Both the position numbers and the translations under genes were made by a program. A model generated the notes under the pieces. The model did not search any database and had not been told where the DNA came from. It saw nothing but the letters and a program-made list of their open reading frames with translations. A DNA stretch of 54,109 nucleotides, from the NCBI GenBank assembly GCA_903901225.1, contig CAIUQE010000005.1:1-54109 (forward strand), in the 5' to 3' direction. Below are positions 5,934 to 27,724 of the stretch, piece by piece. Within the stretch, counting starts at the first letter, position 1. Every line of letters begins with the position of its first letter. The DNA comes from Candidatus Omnitrophota bacterium. GTDB taxonomy: Bacteria; Omnitrophota; Gorgyraeia; Zapsychrales; Fredricksoniimonadaceae.

Positions 5934-5989
5934 AGAATACAATGGATGTGTTGCGAAAAAGTGGCGTTGGTGTGAACTTTGTGTGAACT
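5934..5989 (-). promoter_or_regulatory. Putative Pho-box promoter of the porin-pstSCAB-phoU operon
   Basis: Minus strand reads GTTCACACAAA GTTCACACCAA (11-bp period), then two degenerate units, then -10 TATTCT at 5939-5934. Confidence 0.7.
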
Positions 5990-7973: not shown

Positions 7974-8655
7974 CCTGCCTGAAACGGTAGCCCGCGCCGA
8001 TCACGGTCTCAATGAGGCCCCCGGCGACGGACAATTTGGACCGCAGACGACGCACGTGCGTGTCAACGGTGCGGGTGTAGATCTCGGCGTCAATGCCCCA
8101 GACGTCGGTCAAAAGCTTTTCACGGTCCTGCACGCGGCCCCGGCGCTCCATCAGCAGGGTCAGGAGCTTGAACTCCATGGCCGTCAACTTCACCTCGCGC
8201 CCCTTGACCGTCACGCGGTGGCGCTCCTTGTCCAACAGCAGGTCTTTGGCCGCGAGGACATCCCCAGCCTCAGCGCCGGCGCTATGACGCCGCAGCACGG
8301 CTTTCACGCGCAGCACAAGCTCGCGCGGGCTGAACGGCTTGACGATATAATCATCCACGCCAAGTTCAAGGCCGACGATGCGGTCAACCTCTTCGCCTTT
8401 GGCCGTGAGCATCATCACCGGGATGCGCTTGAGATCGGGATCGCGCTTGATGGCGCGGCATACCTCAAGCCCGTCGATGCCCGGCAGCATCACATCAAGC
8501 ATGACCAGATCAACGGACGCAGCCGCCAGCGCGGTGAGCGCGGCCTCTCCGGTTACCGCGATGGCACAGGCATAACCCGCCTTGTCCATGTTGTACTGGA
8601 TCAGGCGCGCGATGTCCTTGTCATCCTCGACGATCAATATTTTTTTCTTGGCCAT
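7957..8655 (-). CDS. phoB: OmpR/PhoB-family response regulator
   Basis: REC domain (VEDD, LDVMLP, LTAKGEE, KPFSPREL) plus winged helix (RTVDTHVRRLRSKL, GAGYRF); adjacent to phoR and the pst operon. Confidence 0.9.
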   Translation of the reverse strand: MAKKKILIVEDDKDIARLIQYNMDKAGYACAIAVTGEAALTALAAASVDLVMLDVMLPGIDGLEVCRAIKRDPDLKRIPVMMLTAKGEEVDRIVGLELGVDDYIVKPFSPRELVLRVKAVLRRHSAGAEAGDVLAAKDLLLDKERHRVTVKGREVKLTAMEFKLLTLLMERRGRVQDREKLLTDVWGIDAEIYTRTVDTHVRRLRSKLSVAGGLIETVIGAGYRFRQDDDED

Positions 8656-8736
8656 AACTTATTATATTACCATACGCATATTTAATTTAAATGCCATGTT
8701 TTTATGGCAAGAAATCACATGTCAAATTTATTGTGT

Positions 8737-8794
8737 GTAGGGGCGGACCTTGTGTCCGCCCGACGTCACGGGCCGAGACAAGCTCGGCCCCTAC
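8737..8794. repeat. GTAG-type REP doublet (REPIN-like), copy 2
   Basis: GTAGGGGCGGACCTTGTGTCCGCCC-GACGTCAC-GGGCCGAGACAAGCTCGGCCCCTAC; arms differ from 3519-3576 at one base, spacer differs. Confidence 0.85.
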
Positions 8795-8872
8795 GCTCAT
8801 TTTCATCAACATTCATATTACCAGAAACCGCATTTTCACCCATCGTTTTTTCAACACCATGCCCCCGCATGT

Positions 8873-11800
8873 TTAGCGCACAAGGAACGCGCTCGGGTCT
8901 TCCAGTGGCCCGAATGCCGTGATCCTGAAATCAAATCCCCGAAAAAGCTGAAGGAATTGCAACGAACGCGCGACAGGCACGGTGGCCAAACCTGCGGACG
9001 ATGGCGCCGGAGTTGCCCTGAATTCAATATTATTCCGGGTCCCGCTGAGGTCCAATCCGCCGTTCTCAGGTGCCATCAGAACATTATCCCGCGCGGGGCT
9101 TTCCATGGAAGCATCCGCGCCATTTTCTTCCAGCAGCTTCACAGCCTCCTCCATACCCTCTTTCCCCTTGATATGCACCACCCTGGCCGCGCCGTAATGA
9201 GGCAGGACCGGATCATAGGTAAGGTCATCCCCCGCGTCCTTGCGGGCATTAACGAACATCTTGTAAAAAGTCTTAAAACGGTCACGGGCGTCATCGGGGT
9301 CACTGATCCCGTAATACTGCCCGATATCGGCGAAGCTGATCCGCTTGTTAAGATACCCTGTTAAGATCTCATCCTTGGCTTCCAGGAAATTATTAAGGAT
9401 ATCCGTAGTTATGTGCAAATATTTCAGCTGTGCCCACAATTCCGGGTCCTTCTGCAACCCATCCAATACGCTCTCCAGAACACTGACCGCTTTGGGACTA
9501 AAGACCATGACGCCGCTTAACGCGGGGAACTGCCTTAACGCAGGACGGTTCAGGTCGTACTGGTCTTCCAGGTACTTCAACACCTTGTTGCGATACGTCT
9601 TGCCGACGCCGTCTTTTTGAAGCGCCGGGATATCAAGTTTTTCAAGGATCTCGTTGAGCTCGACCCCCTCGGGAGAGAACTTCATCACGAGCAAACCCAA
9701 TGTCTGGAGTTCTTTCTGGTTGACCCAATCCCCCAGAAGATTCACATCATCGCCGGAAAATCTCGGCATGGGGCCGAAATACGCGTCACGGCTGTAAATG
9801 ATAATGTGCCCGCCCCGCGCGCGGCCATCTTCCGGCGCGCGCATGGACCCGGCGGCACGATACCCGTTCACAACTGTCCAATCAAGGATCCTGTCATTCT
9901 GATGGGCATTATTTCCGTGAAAAACAAACATCACGCGCACATCTTCAGGCGCGCGCCCCTTCAGTTCAGGATACTGTTCCAGGAACGCCCCGTCATTCAA
10001 TCTCTCCCGGACCCGCTGCATCGCTTCGAAATAAACATTCCCGCTGCCCTGACGCCGCGGCGCCACCACTTCAACCGGCACATCTTCCCTGAAGATATTT
10101 CCCCGGCGTCCGGGCACATACCGCTTTCCCAGATCATCGGCATACCCTCTATCTTCAGGGACGATCACGACCATATCCACCGAAGGCTTATCAGCAGTGA
10201 TCTCCCGCGTGAGCGCCTGGACGCCTTCCTGCAACGCCGAACGGACAGTTACCGCTTTGCCATCGCCCTGCGCGTCCATTGCGGCCGGTCCCAGCCGTGC
10301 CCCTAACCCGGCATCCAGCTTTTCGGTCACAGCCTTCATGGTCGAGCTCCACGACATCTGCATGATATCAATATGCGGCACCCAGTAGATCATCAGGCTG
10401 ATCATGACAGCGGCGACCCCCGCCAGCGTCAATCCGCTACTGGCCGAAATAATGCCCAGAAAACTCATGACAAGCGCCGCGCTCAACCCCAGGGGGCCTG
10501 AAATGGTGCGCACCCGGCTCCAAAAACTGCGCATCTTGAACTTGTGGCTGGGGGCTGACCTGATGGGCGACAGAAGACTTAAGGCTTTCTGTGTCACTTC
10601 CGACAATATCTTTTTACTTTCCTGCACAACATTCAACTGGGCATCCGACGGATACAATCCGGGCATCAAGGTATTGCCCTGGGCTAAAAGATCCGGCAAT
10701 TCTCCGAAAAGCCTTTTTTCAGAAAGACGCCACTGATATGTATAAAGAAGGACCCAGCGAAAGAACGGATAAACATTGAACCGTTCGGCCCAATGTGAGC
10801 CCGGGAGTTTATAGCTCATCACCTTGTCGATGATCCCCCGATGTTCCAGGACCCGTAAATACACGTGAACATAACTGATCATTTGCGCGAGGACGCGCGC
10901 GTCGCGCGCCAGCAGCTGCCGCTGATGCTCATCCATATCCGGGCTCTTTTTCACGGCATCATCAAGGACATTCAACGTATCAATGGCCAGCAAATTAAAA
11001 TAGCTGAAGGCCGTCTGGTAATGCTCGTTAAGGACAGTGCCTGATGAATTCACTTTTTCCATAAGATCAGGCGTATACGGCGTCATGCGCAGGACCTGGA
11101 ACGCGTTGTTGAGGATATTATTGAACCCGTCAACAATATCTTGCGACGGGACCGCCGCGCCAGCGCCCCGCCATCCATAAGCGATCTCCTGCCACCGGCG
11201 CAGAAAGTCCCCGATCCCGTCATATATGCCATCCCCGGGGATCGTCACAACGGCAGTCGTGCGTGCCGTTGCCGGCGGGACCGTGCCACGCCAGGCCGTC
11301 CATACGTCCTTCCAGCCGCGGGCATGCCCGTTCCCGTTCATGACCTCGACCGAAAATTCACGCCGGAGCGCCAGGATCAGGTCTTCGACGGAGGCCTTCT
11401 TCAGAAAAGACTTGTTGTTCCATCTCTTGAAAAAGAACACCGGCAAAAATATGACGCTGCCCCACAGGAGCAATTTGTTCATGAGGGGCATGGACGACAC
11501 ACTCTGGTCGTTATGGGCAATATCATCGGCAAACGCGTCCCTCCAATAAATGATGTCCTTCGCCAGCGCCCGTACTTCCCCGGCGCCGCGCTCTTGCACG
11601 CTGTCAAGATAACGCCCCACATCGCGGGGATCCGCGGCGGAGTTGATCCTCTGTTCCAGCGCGTCGATGAGCGCCAATTCGCCCTGCTTGTACGTATGCT
11701 GCAATCCCAGAAAATCGTTAAGAATGCCCTGGCGATACGGCTCGGTCTGCTTCAGGAGGGCCAAAGCCAGCCGCGTCGCCTCAACATTGATCTGGGCCTG

Positions 11801-14800
11801 GCGCATGTTACCCTGGCGGGGATCATCGGCCGTCCTCAACTCGGCGAAGGTGTACGTCTTCAGGCGGATATTCAGCGGCCAATCCTCTCCCAGATGCCGG
11901 GACATCTTTAAAAGGGCTTGACGCAAAATTCCGGTCGCGACCGGGTCTGGAACATCCCGCACATCTTTGGTCAAAAGATCGCTCCATTCGCCGCGGGCTT
12001 CAACAAGCGCGCATAATTCCGGGTCATCCGATGCCGCATAAACCTGCAGGGCCAGGATACGGCCTTGCGGCGTCGTCATCAGCCTGTCGAGGGCCATCCC
12101 TCTCAGGTCTGTCGGCAACGCGAATATCCGCCCCAGCTCCGGAATATCCTTCGTCTGAGAAATATAATTTTTCCGGGCATCAAGGCCAAGCCCGTTGAAA
12201 TAGGCCAGCAAAGGCGCATCATCAACGGAAGTCGCGGGAATATCGTACAATACCGGCGTCCTGGAAACCCCGGCAGCGAGGACGGCTCCCGCGCCTTCCC
12301 TGGCCCTGTCGGACAACCAGGCCGGGAGATGTTTTTCCACATCGCGCCACACGGGTGCTGACGCGAGGAACCGCGCATTGATGTTTTTCAAGCCTTCACC
12401 AAGCATGAAATACGCGTGAATATCTTTTTTTGTGAACAAGGGTGAAACTTTTTCATAGGAACCCCGGTTGATGTCTTCAATGCCGCGCAGGGCTTCCCGG
12501 CGGACGATCTCGTCGTAAACAAGTTGTCGTAAACTGACACTGCGGGCGTCCCGGGCTGTTTTCAGGGAGCTGTGGATCTCGCCCAGCTGGTCCGTGGTCC
12601 AGTAGTCGCTGCGCAACAACCGTATGCCGGCGATCGAGCCTTCCCCCGCCCAGGACAGGAACGTCACCATGACCCTTCGCGCCGCCTCCGGAGAAACGCG
12701 TGTGGCCGAGCCTCCCGCGGCGGATGAATAATTCAATTCGGATAGCCGTTTGATCCCGGCCGGATCCTGGGAAAAGATATCGCTCAAACCCTGAAACCCC
12801 CACGCGACAAGAGTAAATTTCTTTTGCCGGATGGCCTCGTCAATGACGCGCACAAAGAATCGGACATCGCCGCCATCCCTGCCGGCCATATACAAAAGAA
12901 GTCTCTGCTGGACATCGGGATACGCGGAATTCAGGACAGCCTGCTCGACAATACCGGTGAATTTCCGATCATGCCTTCCTTCCTGTAAAAGGAAGTCCAG
13001 CGTTTGCTGGCGCACGATCTCATTAGGTTCCTGCGTAAGGATCCTCAGCGTTTCATCGGACAACCCGTCCGATCCCGCGATGAATGCCAGCGCAGCACCA
13101 CCGGACTTGATGTCATTCTCATACGTGACAGATCCGGGTGTAAAGAACCCGTCGCTGGGTGGTGTAACGACCCGCGCCATATGGCCCTGGAGGGGCGCAA
13201 TGGCAGGTTCAACCGGTCTTTGTGCTTTCCTGGGACGATGATCAACCACCGCCTGCGGTGAACCCACCGCCTCTCTGACCGCGGTGACCGTGTCATTGAT
13301 GACCGGCATCTGTTTCTGGGGCGCCGGCACTGGTTCCTCCACTACTGGCTCGCGCTTGCCCCCCATGTTATTTTTTACGACCCAATCTTTAACCTGCACA
13401 GATGCCTTGAAATATTTCGCTTTAAGATCATCCAGCTTGAGGGCGAGCTCCGTAACTTTCGCGCGCTCATGGACCAGCTGATCCGGACGAAAAAGATCCG
13501 ACTGCCGCAGGCTGTTCTCCCAGGCCTGACGGGCAGAATAATAGGCCGCTGTCTGCACCCTGATCTGCCGGCTCAACGCATCCATCTCCGCAACCGCCCG
13601 CGCTTCCGCAATGGACATATCCTGCAATTCCCAGGAACGGGGATTAAAAGCGCCTCTCTTGTCGATATACACACGCGGGAAATTGCCTTCCCATGGGTAC
13701 TGAAAAACTTTCTTTTCGTTTAAAGGCCATCCCATACTATCCATGAGATAGTTCTTATTGCGCTGTGCATCAGCCAGCTTTTGGCGCGCGTCCTGGATCT
13801 GCTGGTCCAGCGTATTCTTTGCGGACGTAAGCGCAAAGCCTGCCGCCTCCCTCGCCGCAAGCCCGGTACCGGCACTCTCGAGATCAGCCACCAGCTTCGT
13901 CCATTGATCAATATCACGCCTGGCTTTTTCGATATCGACTTTCAGGGCCGTTGACGGCGTGAATTCTTCAGGCATGCCCTTAAAGAAGGCAACGCTTGAC
14001 GCCGACGGCGCCTGGGGCAATGCCACCGGCGGTGTGAGCGGGACGGCATTGACCGGTGATGCCGCAACATTTTGAGATTGCGTAACAGGCTGTGCAGGCA
14101 GCAACGGTGGAACAACCCTTCTCCTGGGTGGCTCTGACCCTGCCGCTGACATCTTCACAGCCCTGGTGCGTGGCACGGGCGATTTCAATGCCGGCCCGAA
14201 CTTCTTGAGGACAAACTGCTTTTCGGCATCGGTGAGCACAATGACCGTGACCGGCATATTGGTCCCCAAAAAATGATGGGGGTCATTAGCCGTAACCTCG
14301 ATCGCCTGGACCGCCCCCAGATTCCTGTCCCGGCTTATGGGGTTTTTATTGATGTTCGTGACGGTCCCCGTAACATTTTTCCCAAAAGCCCGCAGCAGGA
14401 CGGGATCGCCCATTCTGATATCAAGCGCGCGGGGCAGAAGGATCGCGGCGTTCATATTGGTCATATCCCCGACACGGACTGGGCCCTTCAGCGATAGGAT
14501 GGTGTCACCGGGGCCGAAGGAACGCTGGGTCGATATCCCCGTGACAATGCCCGCGCAAGGCGCGGTGATGTTGGAACGGCTGATCACGGCGCCAAGCCCG
14601 CCGAGGCGCGCCCCCAACGACGCTTTTTCTTTCTCCAGCGCCACCATTTGATCGGCGGAAATATAATGGACCCCGTCTCTCGGGGCAAAGCGCTGGAGCT
14701 GGGCACTCACGCGGTCATACTGGGCCCGTGTCGCGCCGTATTCCCCCTGGGCGCCCGGCTGGCTGGCGAGCAACTGGCCGGCTTTTACCAACTGGCCTTC

Positions 14801-17488
14801 CGTAACAAAGAATTTCACCGCGCCAAGGGCCGGCGCCACAACGGGTGACTCTTGCGCCACGCCGACAACAGCGCTCGTTTGCGCCACCCCGATCACCGTG
14901 CCCAGATCAACCTCCGATGCTGATGACGGGAACGCGACGCGCACATCATGGGCGGATCCGGCCTCGATGTTCAGCGATGTGGTGACAAGGAACGTGACAA
15001 CCGCCTCGGTCCGCTTCAAGGGATCCACGCGACAGGCCACGCTGACGATCCCGGTCACAGGCTTGCCATCGATCGTGACGCGAACGCGGCTAAAGTCTGT
15101 TTGCGTCACGGGCATCCTCACGCTGAAACCTGCCCTCTGCCCGGAAAGATAATTGACCAGAGGCATGCCTTTCGCGACCGTCTGCCCGTTAGCAACAATA
15201 AAATTCTTAACCGACAAGTTACAGGGCGCGTAAATGGCACCCGCCTGCTGCGCCTGCAGGAGCGGGGCCAATTGCCGGGAAATATTCGCGACGTCCGTAT
15301 TAACAGCGTCGATCTCGGCCATGGTCGCGGCTTGCTGGCCCTGCAAAGACTTCAACATGGCCAGCCGCTGCCGGGCCATGGCGAGCTGCTGCCTTAGCCC
15401 GCCCATTTGAGGATCGATCGCGGGATCCACCAGCCTGAACATGAACGCACCTTCCCGATATTCTTTCTTATTCGGGTTCAAACCCGTGACAATACCGCCC
15501 GTCGGGGACTTGAGCGGTATCTCGTTGAGCTCGAACGTTGTCCGGATCGACAGTTCATACCCCTTCTTATCCGTTGAAGGTGGCGTGGGTCTCGCCGGTG
15601 CTGGCGCAAGCGCCGGCAAGGACTTGGACGGCTCAGCCTTCACGGGCGCAGGCGCGGGGACTTTGGACGCTGCCTTTTGGCGCACAGCTTCTTGCACCTG
15701 CTTCTGAAATAATGGCGGGGCCTCTTGCTGTTTCATTGGAGCCGTGGCTTTGGTTTCAAGCACATTCCCGGCAGGTGATGCCTCCGTTATTGCCGCTGGA
15801 GGCGCGACCTTCTGTTGTGGCGCCATCCGTGCTTCGAGCGCGCGACGAGTTTCCGATCCCAGCTTCCCGTCTTCCCTGAGCCCCAGGGCTCTTTGCGCCA
15901 CCACGATCACCGCTTCCTGTTGCCAGCCCATGCTCGAAGGTGAAAAAACAGCGTCCCAATGCTGGTGGAGATTTTTCCAGTCAAAATCATACGCCCTCCC
16001 GCTCGACGGGTTTACCTTACCCTGGATATCCCTCACCGCATCCTGGCTCAGGAACCCTTTCATCAAAGAAAAATACTTCTGATCCTGCGCCGGGATCATA
16101 TCGCCCCGACTCACAATATTTCCGGATACCGCGACCGGCCTCTCCGGCCTGGTTAGTCCGGTTGGCCCGGCAACGCTGGTGACCGACGCCGGCTGGGCGT
16201 AAGCGGTATTCTGAACACCGGTAAAGGACGCGGGAGGCGCCAATAATCCAGCGGCAAGAACAAGACTGTACAGGGCTTTGCGGGACATCCCCCGCGATGC
16301 CAGGGAAATCGTAAAACTGTAAAATTTGCTACCCAGGCGCCCCATCAGCTCGCGCAAGTCCGTTAAAGACGGTATCGACCGGTACTCAACGCTCTGGGCC
16401 GCGTCCTTGAATGAAAACCCGCCTGAAAAATAACGGCGCGGGACCATCTGCCGTTCCGTCGGGTCATAATCCTCGCGGATAACATCGTAGACACCTTTTT
16501 TCAACGCCAGCATGTACTGCGCGTAGATCTTCCGGCTGACCTCGCGGTCTTCGTCCTGGATACCGGAAAGCTTTCTCTGGTCCGTATATATCCGGTTAAT
16601 GATATTGTCCTGAAGCTTGCGTTTGAACCAGATGGCCAGGACCAGGGAATTGAACATCTGCCGCAGGCTGGCAAAATACTGGCCCTCATTCACTTCCCGT
16701 TCAAGCTCCGGGATAATGATCTCACGCGCGATGGACAAATAAAGTTTATTGGCTGGCCCGACAGACTCCGGCGCGGCGGGGCCGTCCGTCATCCCCTTTT
16801 TCATGGTCATGTAATCCGCGTCGAGCATCACCTTGAGCCGGCTTTCCGATATGAAGGCCGCGCCTTTTTGTTCATAGACAACAGCTTTCTGGGGAACCAC
16901 CCAAACCTTGCTGATCGTGTCCAACGGCACATCGACACTGCCGTATTCTTTTCTGATCTTCGCGTAGACCCGCTCCCAGAACGTCTTGCCCGGCTCCCGG
17001 TCAGGGAACGTCATGGACGCGGCCAGCTGTTTGAGCAGATAATCTTCCCGGAGCATGTCCCCGCCCGCGGCGGTCCCGCTCAGGGACTTATTAACGATAC
17101 GGTCAGGTTCGGTGGGCGAAAGGTTGACCCAGAGGTCTTCTTCAGGGATGGTCAGGAATGTCAGGAAATAGCGGGTCAACCGGCTGGATCCTTCCTGGTC
17201 CACGCGCCCGTGATCACCGGCATCGACGAGAAAGTTGATCTTCAAAGGATCCGCGGGATCAAGGGCTATGCCTTTGAGGACCGGCAGGGAACCCACGGGC
17301 GAAGCGGTCAACACAACACCAGGGGGAGGTTCCACGATCACGCTTTGGGCCCGCGCCTCCCGCACCCGCAACAGATCAGGCCCGATCAGCTCACTGCCAA
17401 AGACAAGCACCAGCAACCAGCAGGCGCAGCGAAACCATGCCTGCCGCTGTAAACCGGATAAACTTCCTTTGAAGCTGGAACGCAACAT
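8873..17488 (-). CDS. Giant (2871 aa) multidomain envelope protein, Omnitrophota-giant-protein-like
   Basis: Uninterrupted 8.6-kb ORF with SD-like AAAGGAAAC upstream. By eye: signal peptide, conserved-looking N-terminal domain, internal signal-like segment, PG-binding motif, two HlyD-like units, coiled coils, HEAT-like region, 3 TM helices, nucleotidyltransferase-like domain, GGLDL C-terminal motif. Confidence 0.85.
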   Translation of the reverse strand: MLRSSFKGSLSGLQRQAWFRCACWLLVLVFGSELIGPDLLRVREARAQSVIVEPPPGVVLTASPVGSLPVLKGIALDPADPLKINFLVDAGDHGRVDQEGSSRLTRYFLTFLTIPEEDLWVNLSPTEPDRIVNKSLSGTAAGGDMLREDYLLKQLAASMTFPDREPGKTFWERVYAKIRKEYGSVDVPLDTISKVWVVPQKAVVYEQKGAAFISESRLKVMLDADYMTMKKGMTDGPAAPESVGPANKLYLSIAREIIIPELEREVNEGQYFASLRQMFNSLVLAIWFKRKLQDNIINRIYTDQRKLSGIQDEDREVSRKIYAQYMLALKKGVYDVIREDYDPTERQMVPRRYFSGGFSFKDAAQSVEYRSIPSLTDLRELMGRLGSKFYSFTISLASRGMSRKALYSLVLAAGLLAPPASFTGVQNTAYAQPASVTSVAGPTGLTRPERPVAVSGNIVSRGDMIPAQDQKYFSLMKGFLSQDAVRDIQGKVNPSSGRAYDFDWKNLHQHWDAVFSPSSMGWQQEAVIVVAQRALGLREDGKLGSETRRALEARMAPQQKVAPPAAITEASPAGNVLETKATAPMKQQEAPPLFQKQVQEAVRQKAASKVPAPAPVKAEPSKSLPALAPAPARPTPPSTDKKGYELSIRTTFELNEIPLKSPTGGIVTGLNPNKKEYREGAFMFRLVDPAIDPQMGGLRQQLAMARQRLAMLKSLQGQQAATMAEIDAVNTDVANISRQLAPLLQAQQAGAIYAPCNLSVKNFIVANGQTVAKGMPLVNYLSGQRAGFSVRMPVTQTDFSRVRVTIDGKPVTGIVSVACRVDPLKRTEAVVTFLVTTSLNIEAGSAHDVRVAFPSSASEVDLGTVIGVAQTSAVVGVAQESPVVAPALGAVKFFVTEGQLVKAGQLLASQPGAQGEYGATRAQYDRVSAQLQRFAPRDGVHYISADQMVALEKEKASLGARLGGLGAVISRSNITAPCAGIVTGISTQRSFGPGDTILSLKGPVRVGDMTNMNAAILLPRALDIRMGDPVLLRAFGKNVTGTVTNINKNPISRDRNLGAVQAIEVTANDPHHFLGTNMPVTVIVLTDAEKQFVLKKFGPALKSPVPRTRAVKMSAAGSEPPRRRVVPPLLPAQPVTQSQNVAASPVNAVPLTPPVALPQAPSASSVAFFKGMPEEFTPSTALKVDIEKARRDIDQWTKLVADLESAGTGLAAREAAGFALTSAKNTLDQQIQDARQKLADAQRNKNYLMDSMGWPLNEKKVFQYPWEGNFPRVYIDKRGAFNPRSWELQDMSIAEARAVAEMDALSRQIRVQTAAYYSARQAWENSLRQSDLFRPDQLVHERAKVTELALKLDDLKAKYFKASVQVKDWVVKNNMGGKREPVVEEPVPAPQKQMPVINDTVTAVREAVGSPQAVVDHRPRKAQRPVEPAIAPLQGHMARVVTPPSDGFFTPGSVTYENDIKSGGAALAFIAGSDGLSDETLRILTQEPNEIVRQQTLDFLLQEGRHDRKFTGIVEQAVLNSAYPDVQQRLLLYMAGRDGGDVRFFVRVIDEAIRQKKFTLVAWGFQGLSDIFSQDPAGIKRLSELNYSSAAGGSATRVSPEAARRVMVTFLSWAGEGSIAGIRLLRSDYWTTDQLGEIHSSLKTARDARSVSLRQLVYDEIVRREALRGIEDINRGSYEKVSPLFTKKDIHAYFMLGEGLKNINARFLASAPVWRDVEKHLPAWLSDRAREGAGAVLAAGVSRTPVLYDIPATSVDDAPLLAYFNGLGLDARKNYISQTKDIPELGRIFALPTDLRGMALDRLMTTPQGRILALQVYAASDDPELCALVEARGEWSDLLTKDVRDVPDPVATGILRQALLKMSRHLGEDWPLNIRLKTYTFAELRTADDPRQGNMRQAQINVEATRLALALLKQTEPYRQGILNDFLGLQHTYKQGELALIDALEQRINSAADPRDVGRYLDSVQERGAGEVRALAKDIIYWRDAFADDIAHNDQSVSSMPLMNKLLLWGSVIFLPVFFFKRWNNKSFLKKASVEDLILALRREFSVEVMNGNGHARGWKDVWTAWRGTVPPATARTTAVVTIPGDGIYDGIGDFLRRWQEIAYGWRGAGAAVPSQDIVDGFNNILNNAFQVLRMTPYTPDLMEKVNSSGTVLNEHYQTAFSYFNLLAIDTLNVLDDAVKKSPDMDEHQRQLLARDARVLAQMISYVHVYLRVLEHRGIIDKVMSYKLPGSHWAERFNVYPFFRWVLLYTYQWRLSEKRLFGELPDLLAQGNTLMPGLYPSDAQLNVVQESKKILSEVTQKALSLLSPIRSAPSHKFKMRSFWSRVRTISGPLGLSAALVMSFLGIISASSGLTLAGVAAVMISLMIYWVPHIDIMQMSWSSTMKAVTEKLDAGLGARLGPAAMDAQGDGKAVTVRSALQEGVQALTREITADKPSVDMVVIVPEDRGYADDLGKRYVPGRRGNIFREDVPVEVVAPRRQGSGNVYFEAMQRVRERLNDGAFLEQYPELKGRAPEDVRVMFVFHGNNAHQNDRILDWTVVNGYRAAGSMRAPEDGRARGGHIIIYSRDAYFGPMPRFSGDDVNLLGDWVNQKELQTLGLLVMKFSPEGVELNEILEKLDIPALQKDGVGKTYRNKVLKYLEDQYDLNRPALRQFPALSGVMVFSPKAVSVLESVLDGLQKDPELWAQLKYLHITTDILNNFLEAKDEILTGYLNKRISFADIGQYYGISDPDDARDRFKTFYKMFVNARKDAGDDLTYDPVLPHYGAARVVHIKGKEGMEEAVKLLEENGADASMESPARDNVLMAPENGGLDLSGTRNNIEFRATPAPSSAGLATVPVARSLQFLQLFRGFDFRITAFGPLEDPSAFLVR

Positions 17489-17543
17489 GTTTCCTTTCCG
17501 CAGGAACAGAACGCAGTCGAATCAAACATTTTCTGTTAAGCGA

Positions 17544-17599
17544 AATATAACATGGGCGTGGGGACGAAAAGTTACAGGGGTGTGAACTCTGTGTGAACT
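17544..17599 (-). promoter_or_regulatory. Putative Pho-box promoter of the giant gene
   Basis: Minus strand reads GTTCACACAGA GTTCACACCCC, then -10 TATATT at 17549-17544. Same repeat and same 30-nt repeat-to--10 spacing as 5934-5989. Confidence 0.7.
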
Positions 17600-17651
17600 A
17601 TTGTCAAGAATGTCAAATAATGACAGTTAATTCAAGTAATCGAGCTTTTGA

Positions 17652-17773
17652 ACATGTTTAACGCCCCATTGTTTTCGCCGCGCCAAGCGCCAGGTACCCT
17701 TCCGCCTGGAGCGAAGTGAAGCCGGAAGGGTGGCGCGTTAAGGCAGGCGAAAAGTTTCAGGCGCTAAACATGT
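17652..17773 (+). mobile_element. 122-bp MITE-like element, copy 1
   Basis: Terminal inverted repeats ACATGTTTAACGCC / GGCGCTAAACATGT and an internal CCCTTCCG...CCGGAAGGG hairpin. A homologous inverted copy lies at 27575-27696. Confidence 0.75.
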
Positions 17774-17776
17774 ATT

Positions 17777-20125
17777 TCATTTCTTCTCAATAACCACGCG
17801 CCAGTGGTCGCCCTGGCGCTCCTGCAGGATGATCTTGTGCCCTTCATCCCGAACCGAGCCAGGAACATTCTCTATAGGCGCGCCATCATCAAGCCATATT
17901 TCCAGAAGATCGCCGGCTTTCAACCTGGCCAGTTCGACCTTGGTCTTGACGAAATTGAACGGGCAAAGGACGCCGCGCAGGTCTTTGGTGGCTGCCGGCG
18001 CGAGGGCCGCGACCTGAACCGGTACCGGCGCTTCAACCGCGGCAACGGGCGGCTTCCTGAAATTGAAGCCGTTATCCATGTTCTCATACAGCACATTGAT
18101 CGCGCGGGCCAGGGCCTGGATATTTTCTTCCTGCGGCACGAGAGCATCGAACTCCTTGCGCTCGGCCAGGGCCACGAGGCCCTCGAACGCGGGATCCACA
18201 TGCCCCGCGGCAATGAAATGCTGGCGGAAGGCATCGTACAATTCCCTGTCGGTCTTCGGTTCAACACCGCGCGTGATCAACAGCGCCCGGCTCGCGAAAA
18301 AGACCAACTGGCCCAACAGCGGCCCTTTCTGGTCCGCCGCGGCGGTGGAAAGTTTTTCCCGCGTCCGACGGATATTGTTCAGGTCCAGTTCAATGAGGTC
18401 AAAAAGCCCGGTTGAACATTCGCCGGCACCCCGTTCGGCCAGCGAGAAGACCTTCGCGGCGCTCCAGTCAAAATAATAATTCTTGTCGTCGTCAAACGCG
18501 GGGATGTCCTTGTAACGCGCGATAATGGCAACCAGGTCGTCTTTGCCTTCACCGGCGATATACTCTTTGAACGTCGCGAAGCGGTCCGCCTTGCCCAGGA
18601 ACGCGGCGAGGAGGTTTTCCACCACAAGCGTGATCGCCCTGGCGGGGATATCTCCCACCAATGCCGCGAGCTTCGTCGTGCCATCGTGGATCACTGCCCC
18701 CGCGTAAACGCTATAAGCGGGATACATGTGCCCGTCCTTGCGCAGGGCCTTACCGGCAAAGCCCAGGTCCGCGGCCGGATGATGCCCGCAGGAGTTCGGG
18801 CATCCGGAAATATTCAACCGGATCTCCCCGACCTTGTCCAGGTCCAGGCCGCTTGAACCCAGCGACTGGATCAACGCCCGCGCCGCCTGGCGCGAAAGGC
18901 AAATGCCCAGCTGGCAGGTCGAGGCACCCGCGCACGAAAGGACCCGCCCCAGCAAAGCAGGCTTGGGCACAAGGGGCAGCACCCTCACCAGAAAAGCATG
19001 GACTTCCTCCAGCTTTCCCGCCGGGATATTCCGCAACAGGAAATTCTGGCCCCGCGTCACGCGCACGACATCATCGCCAAACCCACCCAGGAACCGCGCC
19101 AGCGCGCCGGCCCCATCGCAGGAAATGAACCCGAGTTCCACCGGCACAAGGACCGAAAAAAGCCCGGCCTGTTTCTGTTCCCTGACATAACGCGCGCGCC
19201 ACAGGACAAACTCCGGCTCACCCGGGCCAGGGTGGACCGCCGCCGTCACGGCGCGCCCGGCCTGGGGCTCGTCGAGCGTGAGCGGCGCGTGCCCCTCCTG
19301 CGTGACCTTATTGAACTCCTCATAAAAACGCCGCTTGAATTCTTCCGCGCCCAGGCCCTGCCACAGGAACCTCAGCCGCGCCGCGTGCTTGTTCTTGCGG
19401 TTGCCGTATTTCCAGAACAGGTTCTTGACGGCCTTGGCGATGGGATAAACCTGCGTGTCGTCGACGAAATCGAACAGGAGGTTCCCGACGGCTGACCGCA
19501 CCCCCAGCCCTCCGGCGACATGAACGCGAAATCCTTTTTTACCATCCACGATCCTCGCGATGAACCCCAGGTCGGCCAATGTCGCCTGCCCCTTGTCGTG
19601 CTCCGAGCCGGAAAAAGCGATCTTGTATTTGCGGGGAAGGTTCCAGGAATCGTTCTCCGCGATAAGGCGCGTGGTCAGCGCCGCCGCGTAAGGCGTCACA
19701 TCAAAAACTTCCAGAGGATCGATCCCGGCATCGTCCTGCGCCGCGATATTGCGCACCGTGTTCCCGCCGCCGCCGCGCGTGGAAAGCCCGGCCTCTTTCA
19801 ACTGGCGGATCACCGCGACAAGGTCGTCCAGCTTCACATAATGGATCTGCAATTCCTGCCGCGAGGTCAAATGCAGGTCACCGACGCCGTAGCGCGCGGC
19901 GATCGCGGCGACCTTCTCCAGCTGGCCCGGGGTCACGATACCGGCGACACAGCGGATGCGCACCATGTACGTGTCCGCCTCTCGCTGTTCATAAACACCG
20001 AACGGGACGCGATGGACCTTAAGCTCGATGGGGGCTATCGCGCCGGCGCGGAATTTTGCTATCAACGCTTCGAGCTGGCCGATCTCCTCATCAAGCTGCG
20101 GCGGGATCTTATAACCTGTCGTCAT
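17777..20125 (-). CDS. sir: Siroheme/4Fe-4S sulfite reductase with C-terminal TusA/SirA-like sulfur-transfer domain
   Basis: FGVYEQR, HLTSRQELQIH, NLPRKYKIAFSG, SCAGASTC...ISGCPNSCG cluster ligands, C-terminal DLRGVLCPFNFVK. Start taken at ATG 20125 after GGAGGT. Confidence 0.88.
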   Translation of the reverse strand: MTTGYKIPPQLDEEIGQLEALIAKFRAGAIAPIELKVHRVPFGVYEQREADTYMVRIRCVAGIVTPGQLEKVAAIAARYGVGDLHLTSRQELQIHYVKLDDLVAVIRQLKEAGLSTRGGGGNTVRNIAAQDDAGIDPLEVFDVTPYAAALTTRLIAENDSWNLPRKYKIAFSGSEHDKGQATLADLGFIARIVDGKKGFRVHVAGGLGVRSAVGNLLFDFVDDTQVYPIAKAVKNLFWKYGNRKNKHAARLRFLWQGLGAEEFKRRFYEEFNKVTQEGHAPLTLDEPQAGRAVTAAVHPGPGEPEFVLWRARYVREQKQAGLFSVLVPVELGFISCDGAGALARFLGGFGDDVVRVTRGQNFLLRNIPAGKLEEVHAFLVRVLPLVPKPALLGRVLSCAGASTCQLGICLSRQAARALIQSLGSSGLDLDKVGEIRLNISGCPNSCGHHPAADLGFAGKALRKDGHMYPAYSVYAGAVIHDGTTKLAALVGDIPARAITLVVENLLAAFLGKADRFATFKEYIAGEGKDDLVAIIARYKDIPAFDDDKNYYFDWSAAKVFSLAERGAGECSTGLFDLIELDLNNIRRTREKLSTAAADQKGPLLGQLVFFASRALLITRGVEPKTDRELYDAFRQHFIAAGHVDPAFEGLVALAERKEFDALVPQEENIQALARAINVLYENMDNGFNFRKPPVAAVEAPVPVQVAALAPAATKDLRGVLCPFNFVKTKVELARLKAGDLLEIWLDDGAPIENVPGSVRDEGHKIILQERQGDHWRVVIEKK

Positions 20126-20516
20126 GCACAACCTCCAGTGTTTCTTCCGTGACCTGCCCGTTCTTTATCCAGAATGCCCTGACGTCTTCGTGGCCGTCCG
20201 CGAGCGATACGATCACATAAAGCTTCCCGGCGTCGTACGCAAGGCGGATGTCCTCAGCCGAAGGCCGCGCCGGGCTGGCCGGATGGCTGTGGTAGACCGC
20301 CTCAAGCGACGTGCCTTTGGCCCGGGCCTCCCTGGTCGCCGCGAACTGCTCCCGGGGATCAAAGGAAAAATGTTCGGGGCTTTTGTCGCAATTCGTCAAT
20401 TCATGGATCCCCGCCAGGACCCCGTCCTTCACAGCGAGGTAGCCGCACGCTTCCAGCGGCGCTTCACGACGGGCATGGGCCAGCAGTCGCTCTTGGATAT
20501 CCCCGGTGATCCTCAT
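20109..20516 (-). CDS. JAB/MPN (M67) metalloprotease, sulfur-carrier processing (HcyD/Mec-like)
   Basis: EACGYL and YHSHPASPARPSAED JAMM motif. Start taken as MRITGD at 20516. Confidence 0.9.
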   Translation of the reverse strand: MRITGDIQERLLAHARREAPLEACGYLAVKDGVLAGIHELTNCDKSPEHFSFDPREQFAATREARAKGTSLEAVYHSHPASPARPSAEDIRLAYDAGKLYVIVSLADGHEDVRAFWIKNGQVTEETLEVVHDDRL

Positions 20517-20517
20517 C

Positions 20518-21333
20518 CTAACCCCGCCCCCGGCTCTTGAGATCGCACACCGCCGGCTCAGCGTCAACGAGCGTCGTTATCGAAGGCCTCTCGCCGCACA
20601 CGGGGCACGCCGGATTCCTGGCGAACTTCACGGTGCGGAAATTCATGTTCAGCGCGTCAAAGACCAGCAGGCGGTTGACCAGGAGCTCGCCCTTGCCGAT
20701 AAGAAAACGCAGGACCTCCGCCGCCTGGATCGTGCCCAGCATGCCTGCCACAGCACCCAGGATGCCGGCCTGTGAACAGGTCGGTACCGCGCCCTTGGGC
20801 GGCGGCGCCGTGAACACGCAACGATAGCAGGCCTGCCCCGGCACGTAGGTCAGCGTCTGGCCGTCGAAACGCAGGATGCCGCCGTGCGAAAAGGGCTTGC
20901 CGCCCAGAACACACGCGTCATTGATCAGGAACTTGGCCGCGAAATTATCCGTCCCGTCGACAATAAAATCGTAATCCTTGATGATGCCCGCGATGTTGGC
21001 CGCAGCGACCCGCGTTTCATACGTGATAACCCTGACATCCGGATTGATGGCCGCGATCTTGTCTTTGGCTGACAGCACCTTGGGCCGCCCGACATCGGGC
21101 GTAAAATGGATCACCTGCCGCTGCAGGTTGGAAAGGTCGACCACATCCCCATCGACGAGGCCTATTGTCCCCAGACCGGCCGCCGCCAGGTACAATGCCA
21201 CGGGCGCGCCCAGCCCGCCGGTGCCGATGATAAGCACCTTGCCGGCCAATATCTTTTCCTGGCCTTCAACACCGACATTGCCCAGGATGATGTGGCGGCT
21301 GTAACGCTCGATCTGCGCGTCGTTCAAATTCAT
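20518..21333 (-). CDS. ThiF/MoeB-family (E1-like) adenylyltransferase (HcyF-like)
   Basis: RYSRHI, GTGGLG, DLSNLQRQ, DGTDNF, CYRC and CPVC Zn motifs, catalytic-type PTCSQAG. Confidence 0.93.
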   Translation of the reverse strand: MNLNDAQIERYSRHIILGNVGVEGQEKILAGKVLIIGTGGLGAPVALYLAAAGLGTIGLVDGDVVDLSNLQRQVIHFTPDVGRPKVLSAKDKIAAINPDVRVITYETRVAAANIAGIIKDYDFIVDGTDNFAAKFLINDACVLGGKPFSHGGILRFDGQTLTYVPGQACYRCVFTAPPPKGAVPTCSQAGILGAVAGMLGTIQAAEVLRFLIGKGELLVNRLLVFDALNMNFRTVKFARNPACPVCGERPSITTLVDAEPAVCDLKSRGRG

Positions 21334-22571: not shown

Positions 22572-22789
22572 ATGTCCCTTTTCGCCCCGCCGCCCATGAA
22601 ATAAATAAAATCCACCTCATCATCCTGGGCGACCGGCGTCTGGGCGAGTTTTTCTTTCGCGACAAATTCACCGTTAAGCTGCACCGCGACCATTTCGGGA
22701 TTCGCGACACTGGAACGTTGCAGCACCTCGGCCACCGTGAGCGCGGCTTCAGCGGCCGTAAAAACCTTGCCATTCACCTTCAGCGTCAT
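22568..22789 (-). CDS. ThiS-like sulfur carrier protein with C-terminal extension (HcyS-like)
   Basis: 73 aa, MTLKVNGK...VAVQLNGEFV...DEVDFIYFMGGGAKRDI, with SD AAAGGAG upstream. It is hidden in the 3' end of ORF 22568..23260. Confidence 0.9.
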   Translation of the reverse strand: MTLKVNGKVFTAAEAALTVAEVLQRSSVANPEMVAVQLNGEFVAKEKLAQTPVAQDDEVDFIYFMGGGAKRDI

Positions 22790-22815
22790 TGTCACGTCTC
22801 CTTTATTAAACATGT

Positions 22816-23634: not shown

Positions 23635-23642
23635 CGTTTACC

Positions 23643-24479: not shown

Positions 24480-24506
24480 GCGTTCACCGGAGATTTATAA
24501 AATTAG

Positions 24507-24538
24507 AGGCGGAGCCGGCCCAATGCCCGGCCCCGCCT
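24507..24538 (-). terminator. Hairpin between sbp and cysT
   Basis: AGGCGGAGCCGG...CCGGCCCCGCCT stem followed on the minus strand by CTAATTTT. Confidence 0.45.
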
Positions 24539-24546
24539 GTGAACAA

Positions 24547-25569: not shown

Positions 25570-25587
25570 GATCGGTTCCTTTCGTTA

Positions 25588-26970: not shown

Positions 26971-27055
26971 GCCACGACTCCTTTTTTCCAGTTTACCGTG
27001 TTTGTCACAACCTCCGGTGGTCCGGTCAGTCATTTTACTCTTGCAATATCATTAC

Positions 27056-27514: not shown

Positions 27515-27527
27515 AAACCTCTTATTG

Positions 27528-27571
27528 TCTACTTACCCTATAGAGTGTATTTAATAAACGTTTTTTGTCAA
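27528..27571 (-). promoter_or_regulatory. Sigma70 promoter of the rrf2 operon with overlapping candidate Rrf2 operator
   Basis: Minus strand TTGACA (27571-27566), 16 nt, TACACT (27549-27544); imperfect palindrome TCTA-N9-TAGA at 27528-27544. Confidence 0.6.
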
Positions 27572-27574
27572 GAT

Positions 27575-27696
27575 ACATGTTTAGGGCCTAAAACCTTTTC
27601 ACCTGCCTTATCGCGCCACTCTTCCGGCTTCACTTCGTTCATGCGGAAGGGCACCTGGCGCTCGGCGCGGCGAAAACAAAGTGGCGCTAAACATGC
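27575..27696 (-). mobile_element. 122-bp MITE-like element, copy 2 (inverted relative to copy 1)
   Basis: Its reverse complement aligns end to end with 17652-17773 with scattered substitutions; termini ACATGTTTAGGGCC / GGCGCTAAACATG. Confidence 0.75.
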
Positions 27697-27724
27697 TATT
27701 GTCAGATTTCTTTAAATCCGATAC

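What the first reader, a model, noticed from the sequence alone, without database searches (positions are those of the whole stretch)
8873..17599. Candidate new system: phosphate-regulated giant polyprotein-like envelope machine
Seen: one 2871-aa ORF next to phoBR-pst with a Pho-box-like promoter. Its modules, separated by Pro/Ala-rich linkers, are: signal peptide, N-terminal domain (about aa 55-390), second signal-like peptide (aa 401), PG-binding motif, two membrane-fusion-protein-like units, long amphipathic helices, HEAT-like region, 3 TM helices, sugar-nucleotidyltransferase-like domain, GGLDL tail. Such parts are normally separate genes of an export or glycan operon. Inference: a whole trans-envelope system encoded as a single chain between conserved N- and C-terminal caps, induced by phosphate starvation and possibly processed. 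I know of no described equivalent.
Basis: partly seen in the sequence, partly recalled or inferred. Interest (0 to 1): 0.92.

Follow-up and report, generated by a model that had tools for sequence, protein, structure and literature searches.

The report
Phosphate-linked giant envelope protein, capped family
A real 2871-residue gene of an uncultured Omnitrophota bacterium fuses efflux-pump-like envelope parts with unknown domains, stays beside the phosphate-starvation genes in related genomes, and belongs to a very large, apparently undescribed family of proteins that share the same head and tail.

Summary
The ORF (8873..17488, minus strand, 2871 aa) is real. Four separately assembled runs hold it whole and collinear orthologues exist.

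Supported modules:
- a Sec signal peptide;
- a conserved N-terminal domain ('cap', aa 48-400);
- an internal signal-peptide-like fossil;
- two periplasmic-adaptor (MFP) units;
- a shortened TolC-like segment;
- three conserved membrane helices;
- a C-terminal 'tail'.

The phosphate link is supported. In 6 of 6 related loci the gene lies beside porin-pstSCAB-phoU. A tandem GTTCACAC box occurs only twice in the 2.38-Mb genome: before this gene and before the porin-pst operon.

Cap and tail are generic. About 44 paralogues in this genome (~7% of its DNA) and 8281 representative clusters carry the cap, around unrelated enzyme cargo.

Best reading: a PhoB-induced, envelope-spanning, tripartite-pump-like single chain within a new cap/tail superfamily. 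Transport, topology and processing are inferred.

The parts
17580..17626 (-). Pho-box-like array: five direct half-sites (CTGTCA, TTGACA, TTGACA, TTCACA, TTCACA) 9-11 bp apart, ending in the tandem GTTCACAC-N3-GTTCACAC
   Evidence: The tandem occurs only twice in the genome. Arrays of 4 or more half-sites occur at 2 places, against 0 in 5 shuffles.
17544..17549 (-). Possible -10 hexamer TATATT (inferred)
   Evidence: Read from the sequence. The porin promoter has a similar layout. The consensus scan did not report it.
17348..17488 (-). Sec-type signal peptide, aa 1-47 (positive n-region, 12-residue core, A-R-A then Q)
   Evidence: The same layout is seen in 147 of 150 family representatives analysed. 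An AxAQ-like motif is present in 136 of 150.
16289..17347 (-). 'Cap': conserved N-terminal domain, aa 48-400, mixed alpha/beta, no known family
16196..16288 (-). Internal signal-peptide-like segment, aa 401-431, ending in A-Y-A before Q; read as a fossil of a gene fusion
   Evidence: (M401, K404, L406 and L409 invariant in 8 of 8).
15809..15976 (-). Peptidoglycan-binding-like segment (weak)
   Evidence: PF01471 E 0.025, below cut-off. (PG_binding_3 in 2 of 17, PG_binding_1 in 1 of 17 orthologues).
14849..15514 (-). Adaptor (MFP)-like unit 1, aa 659-880: lipoyl halves at 659-686 and 752-780 around a short hairpin, then a barrel
   Evidence: EmrA, E 0.01, at profile positions 667-760 of the 3009-position A3 model; these are not P0001 residue numbers. 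(HlyD families in orthologues)..
14198..14836 (-). Adaptor (MFP)-like unit 2, aa 885-1097: lipoyl halves at 885-911 and 973-1000
   Evidence: TIGR01730, E 3.9e-7, aa 881-988, far below cut-off. (MacA/MexA, E 7e-11, profile positions 841-971)..
13289..13951 (-). TolC-like (OEP-like) helical segment, aa 1180-1400, about half the length of the orthologues' OEP region
   Evidence: (OEP in 7 of 17). Not detected in this protein by PF02321.
11486..13141 (-). Conserved region of unknown fold, aa 1450-2001, inferred periplasmic
11429..11485 (-). Membrane helix, aa 2002-2020, with 5 K/R just after it
10508..11428 (-). Conserved region of unknown fold, aa 2021-2327, inferred cytoplasmic
10361..10507 (-). 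Hydrophobic hairpin (two membrane helices), aa 2328-2376, with 4 K/R before it
   Evidence: (17 of 17 orthologues).
9107..10264 (-). C-terminal alpha/beta domain, aa 2409-2794. Invariant residues of alignment A6 include D59, G102 and S103 (the GSGN loop at a helix start), G163, Y164, E237 and D317 (numbering of the 492-residue first row)
   Evidence: pLDDT 77.6, pTM 0.77. No relatives outside the family.
8876..9076 (-). 'Tail': the family-wide C-terminal module (GG-L-D-L ... F-R-G-F-D-F), disordered when modelled alone
8737..8794 (-). GC-rich stem-loop after the stop codon, a likely terminator; phoB then has its own promoter-like site
   Evidence: z -3.03; 0 of 200 shuffles fold as well.
5970..5988 (-). 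Second copy of the tandem GTTCACAC-N3-GTTCACAC, upstream of the porin-pst operon

Best explanation
The gene encodes a single-chain protein that spans the cell envelope, belongs to the phosphate-starvation (Pho) regulon of an Omnitrophota bacterium, and is built on a lineage-wide 'cap...tail' chassis.

Shown:
- It is a real, conserved gene.
- Its middle part is homologous to two periplasmic adaptor (MFP) units followed by a TolC-like segment.
- It keeps company with phoBR-porin-pstSCAB-phoU across related genomes.
- It shares a Pho-box-like operator with the porin-pst promoter.
- Its head and tail are the signature of a huge paralogous family.

Inferred topology:
1. The signal peptide is cleaved.
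2. The cap, PG-binding-like piece, both adaptor units, the TolC-like helices and region 1450-2001 lie in the periplasm.
3. Helix 2002-2020 returns the chain to the cytoplasm.
4. Region 2021-2327, the hairpin, the alpha/beta domain and the tail are cytoplasmic.

Inferred mechanism. When phosphate is scarce, PhoB binds the direct repeats and switches the gene on. The chain carries two adaptor units per TolC-like unit, which is the ratio of tripartite pumps (6 adaptors to 3 outer-membrane protomers; recalled from the field). It would therefore assemble as a trimer, or a hexamer where the TolC-like part is halved. This would form a pump-like duct from the inner membrane towards the outer membrane. 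The three membrane helices and the cytoplasmic alpha/beta domain would act as its inner-membrane part. It would export a product or scavenging factor needed under phosphate limitation.
For: Reality of the gene.

Adaptor homology:
- The orthologue profile (A3, 17 sequences) hits MacA/MexA adaptors in the PDB at E 7e-11.
- TIGR01730 matches at E 3.9e-7.
- Among 17 orthologues, HlyD_D23 is found in 7, HlyD_3 in 4 and Biotin_lipoyl_2 in 5.
- Two sets of lipoyl half-motifs are present.

TolC-like part: OEP in 7 of 17 orthologues, mapping onto aa 1278-1369.

Pho link:
- In 6 of 6 related loci (35-47% identity) the gene is on the same strand beside porin-pstSCAB-phoU. phoBR is adjacent in 4 of 6. There are at least four different gene orders.
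- The tandem GTTCACAC-N3-GTTCACAC (at most 1 mismatch per half) occurs 2 times in 2.38 Mb on both strands: before this gene and before the porin-pst operon.
- Arrays of 4 or more half-sites occur at 2 places in the genome, against 0 in 5 shuffles.
- In the related loci, 10 of 24 half-site pairs fall in the 11 upstream windows (2750 of 144,815 bp), with at least one pair in 5 of 5 giant-gene windows and 4 of 6 porin windows.
- Passages of the review PMC4415409 describe PHO boxes as two 11-nt direct repeat units, with cores CTGTCAT (E. coli) and GTTCACC (S. coelicolor).

Topology: a canonical signal peptide, 5 K/R after helix 2002-2020 and 4 K/R before the hairpin. The helices recur in the orthologues at the same threshold, in 14 of 17 and 17 of 17.

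Age of the fusion: the caps of this protein and of 5 orthologues form one clade (support 100/100), apart from 37 paralogue caps.
Against: - Nothing shows transport.
- This protein's own TolC-like part is not detected by PF02321. It lacks about 200 residues that orthologues have, so an outer-membrane barrel may be absent.
- The TIGR01730 score (29.3 bits) is far below the family cut-off (94.9).
- No RND, ABC-exporter or MFS partner lies nearby, and the C-terminal half matches no transporter or any known family.
- Topology rests on hydropathy and charge counts only. The internal signal-like segment (score 1.46) could be a fourth membrane helix.
- Pho control is inferred from DNA only. No RNA data were found.
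- By the strict pattern, orthologous promoters have pairs of half-sites but no arrays of 3 or more.
- The genome has 5 ordinary TolC-like genes, so a fused one is not needed for ordinary efflux.
- Most cap/tail paralogues carry cytoplasm-type enzymes. The chassis may therefore serve a purpose unrelated to transport.
Confidence: 0.45

Rival explanations
1. It is one more cargo of a general cap/tail sorting or display system. The protein is exported and held at, or released from, the cell surface like its roughly 44 paralogues. The pump-like parts act as a spacer or attachment device towards a host or prey cell rather than as a duct. Phosphate starvation switches on a set of such surface proteins for scavenging.
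For: - The cap follows a canonical signal peptide.
- Cap and tail co-occur in 39 of 42 tail-bearing ORFs here and in 120 of 150 representatives.
- A second Pho-box-like array precedes a run of five cap/tail genes on contig C49. One of them carries methyltransferase, HD_3 and deaminase domains.
- A cap gene directly follows phoU in L042.
- Symbiotic or predatory lifestyles and surface roles for long proteins are proposed for this phylum (passages).
Against: - The three conserved membrane helices with positive-inside flanks argue for an integral inner-membrane protein.
- The giant-type cap is a separate old clade.
- The neighbourhood with pst is specific to this protein family.
Confidence: 0.25
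2. It is a structural brace. The protein ties the inner membrane, peptidoglycan and outer membrane together, or remodels the envelope when phosphate is scarce, with no substrate passing through it.
For: - Weak PG-binding motifs.
- Degenerate, shortened TolC-like part.
- Adaptor units scoring far below family cut-offs.
- No energising transporter domain found.
Against: - The 1570-residue C-terminal half is the best-conserved part and has invariant polar residues, such as the GSGN loop, that suggest ligand binding or catalysis.
- The PG-binding evidence is below every curated cut-off.
Confidence: 0.15
3. It is a polyprotein. The chain is cut at the Pro/Ala-rich linkers, or at the internal signal-peptide-like site, into separate cap, adaptor, TolC-like and inner-membrane proteins.
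For: - The internal segment 401-431 looks like a full signal peptide with an A-Y-A/Q site, and M401 is invariant.
- One orthologue (L045) has the first ~590 residues and the rest in different reading frames.
- Linkers at 563-658, 1098-1182 and 1415-1454.
- Peptidase domains that might cut long proteins are discussed for the phylum (passage).
Against: - No protease domain in the protein.
- The other four loci where two or more segments could be compared (L041, L043, L044, L046) keep one frame.
- No peptide-level data.
- The frame change in L045 may be a sequencing error.
Confidence: 0.1
4. It is an assembly or gene-calling artefact that joins separate genes.
For: - A fusion fossil at aa 401.
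- One split orthologue.
Against: - Four per-run assemblies hold the identical 8727-bp stretch in one contig at depth 23-58 (one study, possibly the source).
- Collinear full-length orthologues occur in other assemblies.
Confidence: 0.02

Closest known systems
Tripartite efflux / type I secretion assemblies (adaptors MacA, MexA/AcrA, HlyD, EmrA with outer-membrane factor TolC)
   Same: - Lipoyl-hairpin-barrel adaptor units.
- A TolC-like helical segment in the same protein family.
- Two adaptor units per TolC-like unit, the ratio of the assembled pumps (ratio recalled, not computed here).
   Different: - All parts lie in one chain.
- No RND, ABC or MFS component.
- Scores are below the curated cut-offs.
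- The TolC-like part is halved in this protein.
- It carries an extra cap, tail and 1400 residues of unknown domains.
- It sits beside a phosphate importer, not an exporter.
Long and giant multi-domain proteins of Omnitrophota (Seymour 2023, PMC10066038; West-Roberts 2023, 10.1101/2023.11.21.568195; Nielsen and Lui 2026, 10.64898/2026.06.07.730766; passages only)
   Same: - Same phylum.
- Signal peptide plus membrane helices.
- Mosaic of enzyme domains, including glycolytic ones, in relatives that share the cap.
   Different: - Those papers treat ORFs over 20 kb or proteins over 10,000 aa; this one has 2871 aa.
- The passages I saw state that N-terminal regions generally lack identifiable domains apart from C39 and S8 peptidase domains. 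They mention no shared cap or tail, no adaptor or TolC content (0 occurrences of HlyD, TolC, efflux) and no Pho link.
Pho regulon members with PHO boxes (review PMC4415409, passages)
   Same: - Direct repeats about 11 nt apart, with cores like CTGTCAT and GTTCACC, upstream of the gene and of pst.
- Adjacent phoBR.
   Different: The product is not a phosphatase, transporter or known Pho protein. Regulation is untested.
Giant RTX adhesins of type I secretion (LapA-like: N-terminal retention module, variable middle, C-terminal secretion signal; recalled, not tested)
   Same: Conserved head, variable middle and a conserved C-terminal module of about 60 residues.
   Different: - Cap proteins start with a Sec signal peptide.
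- No RTX or related Pfam hit.
- No transporter genes recur next to them.

Membership tests
Periplasmic adaptor / membrane fusion proteins (TIGR01730, HlyD Pfam families) | Score above the curated family cut-off | tested here: not met
   TIGR01730 scores 29.3 bits against a cut-off of 94.9. No HlyD Pfam hit in this protein at E<=1 apart from Biotin_lipoyl_2 at E 0.032.
Periplasmic adaptor / membrane fusion proteins (TIGR01730, HlyD Pfam families) | Lipoyl halves flanking a helical hairpin, followed by a barrel, recognisable by profile | tested here: met
   The orthologue profile hits MacA/MexA at E 7e-11. HlyD_D23 is found in 7 of 17 and HlyD_3 in 4 of 17 orthologues. Two pairs of lipoyl half-motifs are present.
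Periplasmic adaptor / membrane fusion proteins (TIGR01730, HlyD Pfam families) | Encoded with an inner-membrane exporter (RND, ABC, MFS) | tested here: not met
   The neighbours are phoBR, a porin, the pstSCAB importer, phoU and sulfate-assimilation genes.
Outer membrane factor (TolC; Pfam OEP PF02321) | Two OEP repeats per protomer detected by the family model | tested here: not met
   Not detected in this protein. Detected in 7 of 17 orthologues. Only about half of the OEP region of P0012 aligns to aa 1278-1369.
Pho regulon | PHO-box-type direct repeats upstream, shared with pst | tested here: met
   Definition taken from passages of PMC4415409.
Pho regulon | Induction by phosphate limitation through PhoB | not testable with these tools
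   No RNA holder was listed. The organism is uncultured.
Omnitrophota giant ORFs as defined in print (>20 kb, or >=10,000 aa) | Length threshold | tested here: not met
   8.6 kb, 2871 aa. Thresholds come from passages.
Cap/tail superfamily (defined here) | Signal peptide, then the ~320-residue cap at the N-terminus | tested here: met
   (the cap starts at residue 1-65 in all 150 best representatives).
Cap/tail superfamily (defined here) | C-terminal tail starting with GG-(I/L)-D-(L/F) | tested here: met
   The giant-type tail is a divergent variant (11-27% identity to paralogue tails).
Sugar nucleotidyltransferase / GT-A-like enzymes | Family model or fold match for aa 2380-2800 | tested here: inconclusive
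   - No Pfam hit in this protein.
- 1 of 13 orthologue domains hits CofC-like guanylyltransferase, at E 0.0037 only.
- No PDB sequence hit at E<=10.
Type I secretion substrates / RTX adhesins | No Sec signal peptide; RTX repeats before the C-terminal signal | tested here: not met
   Canonical signal peptides are present. No RTX family appears among the hits.

The most novel reading that the evidence does not exclude
Cap and tail together form a previously unrecognised protein sorting or assembly system of one Omnitrophota lineage. A Sec-exported, ~320-residue head and a ~60-residue C-terminal module recognise each other, within one chain or head-to-tail between chains. In this way dozens of enzyme-bearing proteins per cell, about 7% of the genome, would be displayed, chained or delivered. 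The phosphate-starvation regulon would control at least part of the set, including this pump-like giant.
Probability: 0.3. Interest if true: 0.9.

Novelty: new variant of a known kind. Interest (0 to 1): 0.72.

Why it matters
Three points, in rising order of reach.

1. It adds a large, conserved and unexplained member to the phosphate-starvation response of an uncultured, possibly host-dependent phylum. The promoter element can be tested directly.

2. It is a natural single-chain version of parts that pumps and type I secretion systems normally assemble from separate proteins, in the 2:1 ratio those machines use. That could inform how such ducts assemble.

3. It exposes a family of more than 8000 sequence clusters with a fixed head and tail around almost any enzyme. 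No family library names this family, and none of the passages I read describes it. Explaining that chassis would bear on an open question: why Omnitrophota put cytoplasm-type enzymes behind signal peptides, in long and giant proteins.

Tried and rejected
The stored orthologue P0009 gave no usable hit and no model.
- Fold search of both models: closed. No fold comparison could be made, so the cap and the C-terminal domain remain unnamed.
- PDB sequence and profile searches:
  - cap: none at E<=10;
  - C-terminal domain: none at E<=10;
  - tail: only a BadA head at E 0.022;
  - whole protein: only an endoglucanase at E 0.03.
- Stand-alone homologues of aa 2380-2800 (231-737 aa searched) and of aa 1450-2000 (303-965 aa searched): none. 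No paralogue of the C-terminal half in the genome.
- Weak Pfam tallies: the cap gave only noise (PSII_BNR in 6 of 38 at E>=0.013). PADLOC gave nothing.
- Rfam: no match in 8600-17900. Tandem repeats: none. Internal protein repeats by BLAST: none.
- Recurrent accessory gene within 6 kb of cap paralogues: none, largest cluster 2.
- Strict triple half-sites with exact 5-nt spacers: only 1 in the genome, and not at this promoter. Arrays of 3 or more are not found in the orthologous loci.
- The sigma-70 consensus scan did not report a promoter in the spacer.
- Expression: no RNA holder listed.
- The search for related loci with the 17-sequence alignment failed for lack of conserved stretches. It was repeated with 8 sequences.
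- Considered and set aside:
  - tail as a double-glycine or C39 cleavage site (only one C39 hit in the genome, on a 16,827-aa ORF);
  - T9SS-like or exosortase-like sorting (not tested);
  - a rule that cap and tail lie on opposite sides of the membrane (about half of the paralogues have no hydrophobic segment between them).

Full report
**The ORF is real**

The window holds one ATG-started ORF at 8873..17488 on the minus strand. It encodes 2871 residues with no internal stop.

Downstream on the same strand lie phoB, phoR, a Porin_5 porin, pstS, pstC, pstA, pstB and phoU. Upstream lies a sulfite-reductase-TusA fusion, followed by further sulfate-assimilation genes.

A GC-rich stem-loop follows the stop codon (z -3.03; 0 of 200 shuffles fold as well). 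phoB then has its own promoter-like site, so the giant gene looks monocistronic.

Four public runs each contain the whole 8727-bp stretch in a single contig with no differences, at depth 23-58. They come from one study of lake water and may be the source of this DNA.

Full-length collinear orthologues of 78, 70 and 44% identity come from other assemblies, some seen on several contigs. An assembly or fusion artefact is therefore very unlikely.

**What the chain contains**

Family libraries give nothing above cut-off for the protein itself. The only hits are weak ones: PG_binding_1 (E 0.025), Biotin_lipoyl_2 (E 0.032) and TIGR01730 adaptor (E 3.9e-7, 29 bits against a cut-off of 95).

A profile of 17 orthologues (A3) is more telling:
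- It hits the periplasmic adaptors MacA and MexA in the PDB at E 7e-11.
- Scanning the 17 members one by one finds OEP (TolC family) in 7, HlyD_D23 in 7, Biotin_lipoyl_2 in 5, HlyD_3 in 4, PG_binding_3 in 2 and PG_binding_1 in 1.

In this protein two sets of lipoyl half-motifs (659-686 with 752-780, and 885-911 with 973-1000) mark two adaptor-like units.

The OEP region of orthologue P0012 aligns to aa 1278-1369 for only about half its length. This protein lacks roughly 200 residues that orthologues have there. PF02321 does not detect it, although it detects five ordinary TolC-like genes elsewhere in the genome.

Hydropathy shows an N-terminal signal peptide, one helix at 2002-2020 and a hairpin at 2328-2376. 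At the same threshold these recur in 14 of 17 and 17 of 17 orthologues.

Charge counts fit a chain that is periplasmic from residue 48 to 2001 and cytoplasmic from 2021 onward. There are 5 K/R after the first helix and 4 K/R before the hairpin.

Residues 401-431 look like a complete second signal peptide, ending in the same A-Y-A/Q motif that precedes the cap in most paralogues. M401 is invariant in 8 of 8 orthologues. I read this as the fossil of a fusion between a cap gene and an exported adaptor gene. It could also be a fourth membrane helix or a processing site.

The C-terminal half (aa 1450-2871) is the best-conserved part. It has no relatives outside the family:
- no stand-alone homologues;
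- no paralogue in the genome;
- no PDB or Pfam match. One of 13 orthologue domains gives a weak CofC-like hit at E 0.0037.

An AlphaFold model of aa 2380-2871 (pLDDT 77.6, pTM 0.77) shows a confident alpha/beta domain over aa 2409-2794 and a disordered tail. An invariant GSGN loop sits at a helix start.

**The phosphate link**

Six related loci from Omnitrophota genome bins (35-47% identity) all carry the giant gene on the same strand next to porin-pstSCAB-phoU. phoBR is adjacent in four of the six. The order of the blocks differs: the giant gene lies before phoBR, between phoBR and the porin, after phoU, or before a second pstS. Linkage that survives rearrangement argues for a functional tie.

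The upstream spacer holds five direct half-sites 9-11 bp apart, ending in the tandem GTTCACAC-N3-GTTCACAC. With at most one mismatch per half, that tandem occurs exactly twice in the 2.38-Mb genome: here and upstream of the porin-pst operon. The downstream promoter parts of the two sites also resemble each other.

Arrays of four or more half-sites occur at two places in the genome, against none in five shuffles.

In the related loci the strict pattern gives no arrays of three. Pairs, however, are concentrated upstream of the giant and porin genes. Ten of 24 pairs fall in 2750 of 144,815 bp, which is 3.6 per kb against 0.10 per kb outside. At least one pair is found in 5 of 5 giant-gene windows and 4 of 6 porin windows. 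AT-rich spacers may inflate this figure.

The layout matches what a review describes as PHO boxes: two 11-nt direct repeat units, with cores CTGTCAT in E. coli and GTTCACC in S. coelicolor (passages of PMC4415409). Control by PhoB is thus well motivated but not shown. No RNA data were available.

**Cap and tail are generic**

The first ~350 residues after the signal peptide are shared at 36-50% identity by about 44 other ORFs of this genome, always at the N-terminus. Together these ORFs sum to 54,846 residues, about 7% of the DNA.

Nearly all end with the same module: GG-(I/L)-D-(L/F), about 50 residues, then G-x-x-P-V-I.
- A tail model finds 42 ORFs, 39 of which carry the cap.
- The exceptions are contig-edge pieces or a frame-shifted neighbour. 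That model was built from these same tails.
- In independent sets the tail is present in 120 of 150 best cap representatives (119 at the very end) and in 19 of 21 long homologues.

A cap profile finds 8281 representative clusters among 1.84 billion proteins, 6782 of them at E<=1e-30. In all 150 listed the cap starts at residue 1-65.

Distribution of the cap:
- 41 of 41 genomes of the window's family (17 of 17 genera; 2-64 matches each);
- only 8 of 121 genomes sampled across the phylum.

By contrast, the giant's C-terminal domain is in 10 of 401 phylum genomes, mostly the same family.

The cargo between cap and tail is diverse and mostly of cytoplasmic type:
- In this genome each of these occurs in a single paralogue of 39: a PLP enzyme, phosphoglucomutase, HD, HAD, GT2, methyltransferase, histidine-kinase ATPase, deaminase, an AvrB_AvrC-like domain and others.
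- Among 40 representatives: radical SAM with B12-binding in 3, methyltransferases in 2, and EPSP synthase, cytidylate kinase and UDPGP in 1 each.
- In longer relatives, precomputed Pfam rows list glycolytic enzymes, NAD synthase and SNF2 helicases.

The pre-cap segment is a canonical Sec signal peptide: median 36 residues, 3 K/R, a short hydrophobic core, then x-Y-A-Q. About half of the paralogues have no hydrophobic segment between cap and tail. No accessory gene recurs near them.

The cap model (pLDDT 78.4, pTM 0.77) is a mixed alpha/beta domain with three hairpins and a long helical hairpin. It has many invariant polar residues and no sequence match in PDB or Pfam.

A modelled cap-tail pair gave weak support only:
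- score 0.47 (runs 0.47, 0.66, 0.38) against a best control of 0.02;
- the mark was reached by 58 of 80 solved complexes and 2 of 110 mismatched pairs;
- at 0.60 or under it was reached by only 7 of those 80 and by both mismatches;
- the runs agree in at least 42% of contacts, and the partner's pLDDT is at least 41.

In this protein the inferred topology puts cap and tail on opposite sides of the membrane. That does not fit a simple intramolecular clasp.

The caps of this protein and of five orthologues form one clade (100/100), apart from 37 paralogue caps. The fusion is therefore old and inherited with the rest of the gene.

**Further hints that Pho control reaches the chassis**

The only other array of four or more half-sites in the genome lies upstream of a run of five cap/tail genes on contig C49. 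Its sequence resembles the giant's promoter. One of those genes carries methyltransferase, HD_3 and cytidine-deaminase domains. In locus L042 a cap gene follows phoU directly.

**Reading**

I consider it most likely (0.45) that this is a PhoB-induced, inner-membrane-anchored chain. Its periplasmic part would work like the adaptor and outer-membrane parts of a tripartite pump. Its three helices and cytoplasmic domains would form a new kind of inner-membrane part.

The two-adaptors-per-TolC-unit ratio is that of assembled pumps. I recall this ratio from the field and did not compute it here. It suggests a trimer.

The rivals are:
- a displayed cargo of a general cap/tail system (0.25);
- a non-transporting envelope brace (0.15);
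- a processed polyprotein (0.1);
- an artefact (0.02).

**Comparison with print**

I ran full-text searches for Omnitrophota with 'giant', with 'effector' and 'N-terminal domain', and with 'type I secretion'. I also ran term searches inside three papers.

These papers describe giant ORFs, multi-enzyme long proteins, signal-peptide-plus-helix topologies, and glycolytic domains predicted outside the cell. The passages I saw mention no shared cap or tail, no adaptor or TolC content (0 occurrences) and no Pho linkage.

I saw passages only. Supplementary tables were closed and may list domains that bear on this.

**Verdict**

The protein is a new variant built from known envelope parts and unknown domains. 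The cap/tail superfamily it exposes is the more far-reaching result.

Noticed in passing
own genome contig C49, about 17633-35042 (outside the window): Five consecutive cap/tail genes follow the only other Pho-box-like array of 4 or more half-sites in the genome. One of them (L006) carries methyltransferase, HD_3 and cytidine-deaminase domains.
   Followed up: partly
L042:9898-10968: In a related genome bin, a gene starting with the cap follows phoU directly on the same strand.
   Followed up: partly
L045:8190-17617: In this orthologous locus the first ~590 residues and the rest of the giant gene are in different reading frames. This is either a split gene or a sequencing error. The database protein P0014 starts after the break.
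   Followed up: no
own genome contig C11, around 93966-94148: An open frame of 16,827 aa with a weak C39 peptidase match. This is a true giant gene in the same genome.
   Followed up: no
own genome, one cap/tail paralogue (member of alignment A2, not identified): One paralogue has an AvrB_AvrC-family domain (E 1.2e-22), a family known from plant-pathogen effectors. This is a hint that some cargo may act on other cells.
   Followed up: no
window 17777-31190: A sulfate-assimilation cluster lies upstream: NIR_SIR-TusA fusion, ThiF, a Cys/Met PLP enzyme, permease-like genes, a Porin_O_P porin (25588-27033) and a CysN/APS-kinase fusion (29400-31190).
   Followed up: partly
window 31582-50448: Three PAS histidine kinases, a receiver-GGDEF protein, a secretin (42183-43721) and a T2SSE ATPase (48766-50448). 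The genome has 6-7 secretin genes in all.
   Followed up: no
window 17114-17148: In each of the four runs a 440-nt contig matches only these 35 bases (1 difference) and runs on unlike sequence. It probably comes from a paralogue's conserved cap motif.
   Followed up: no
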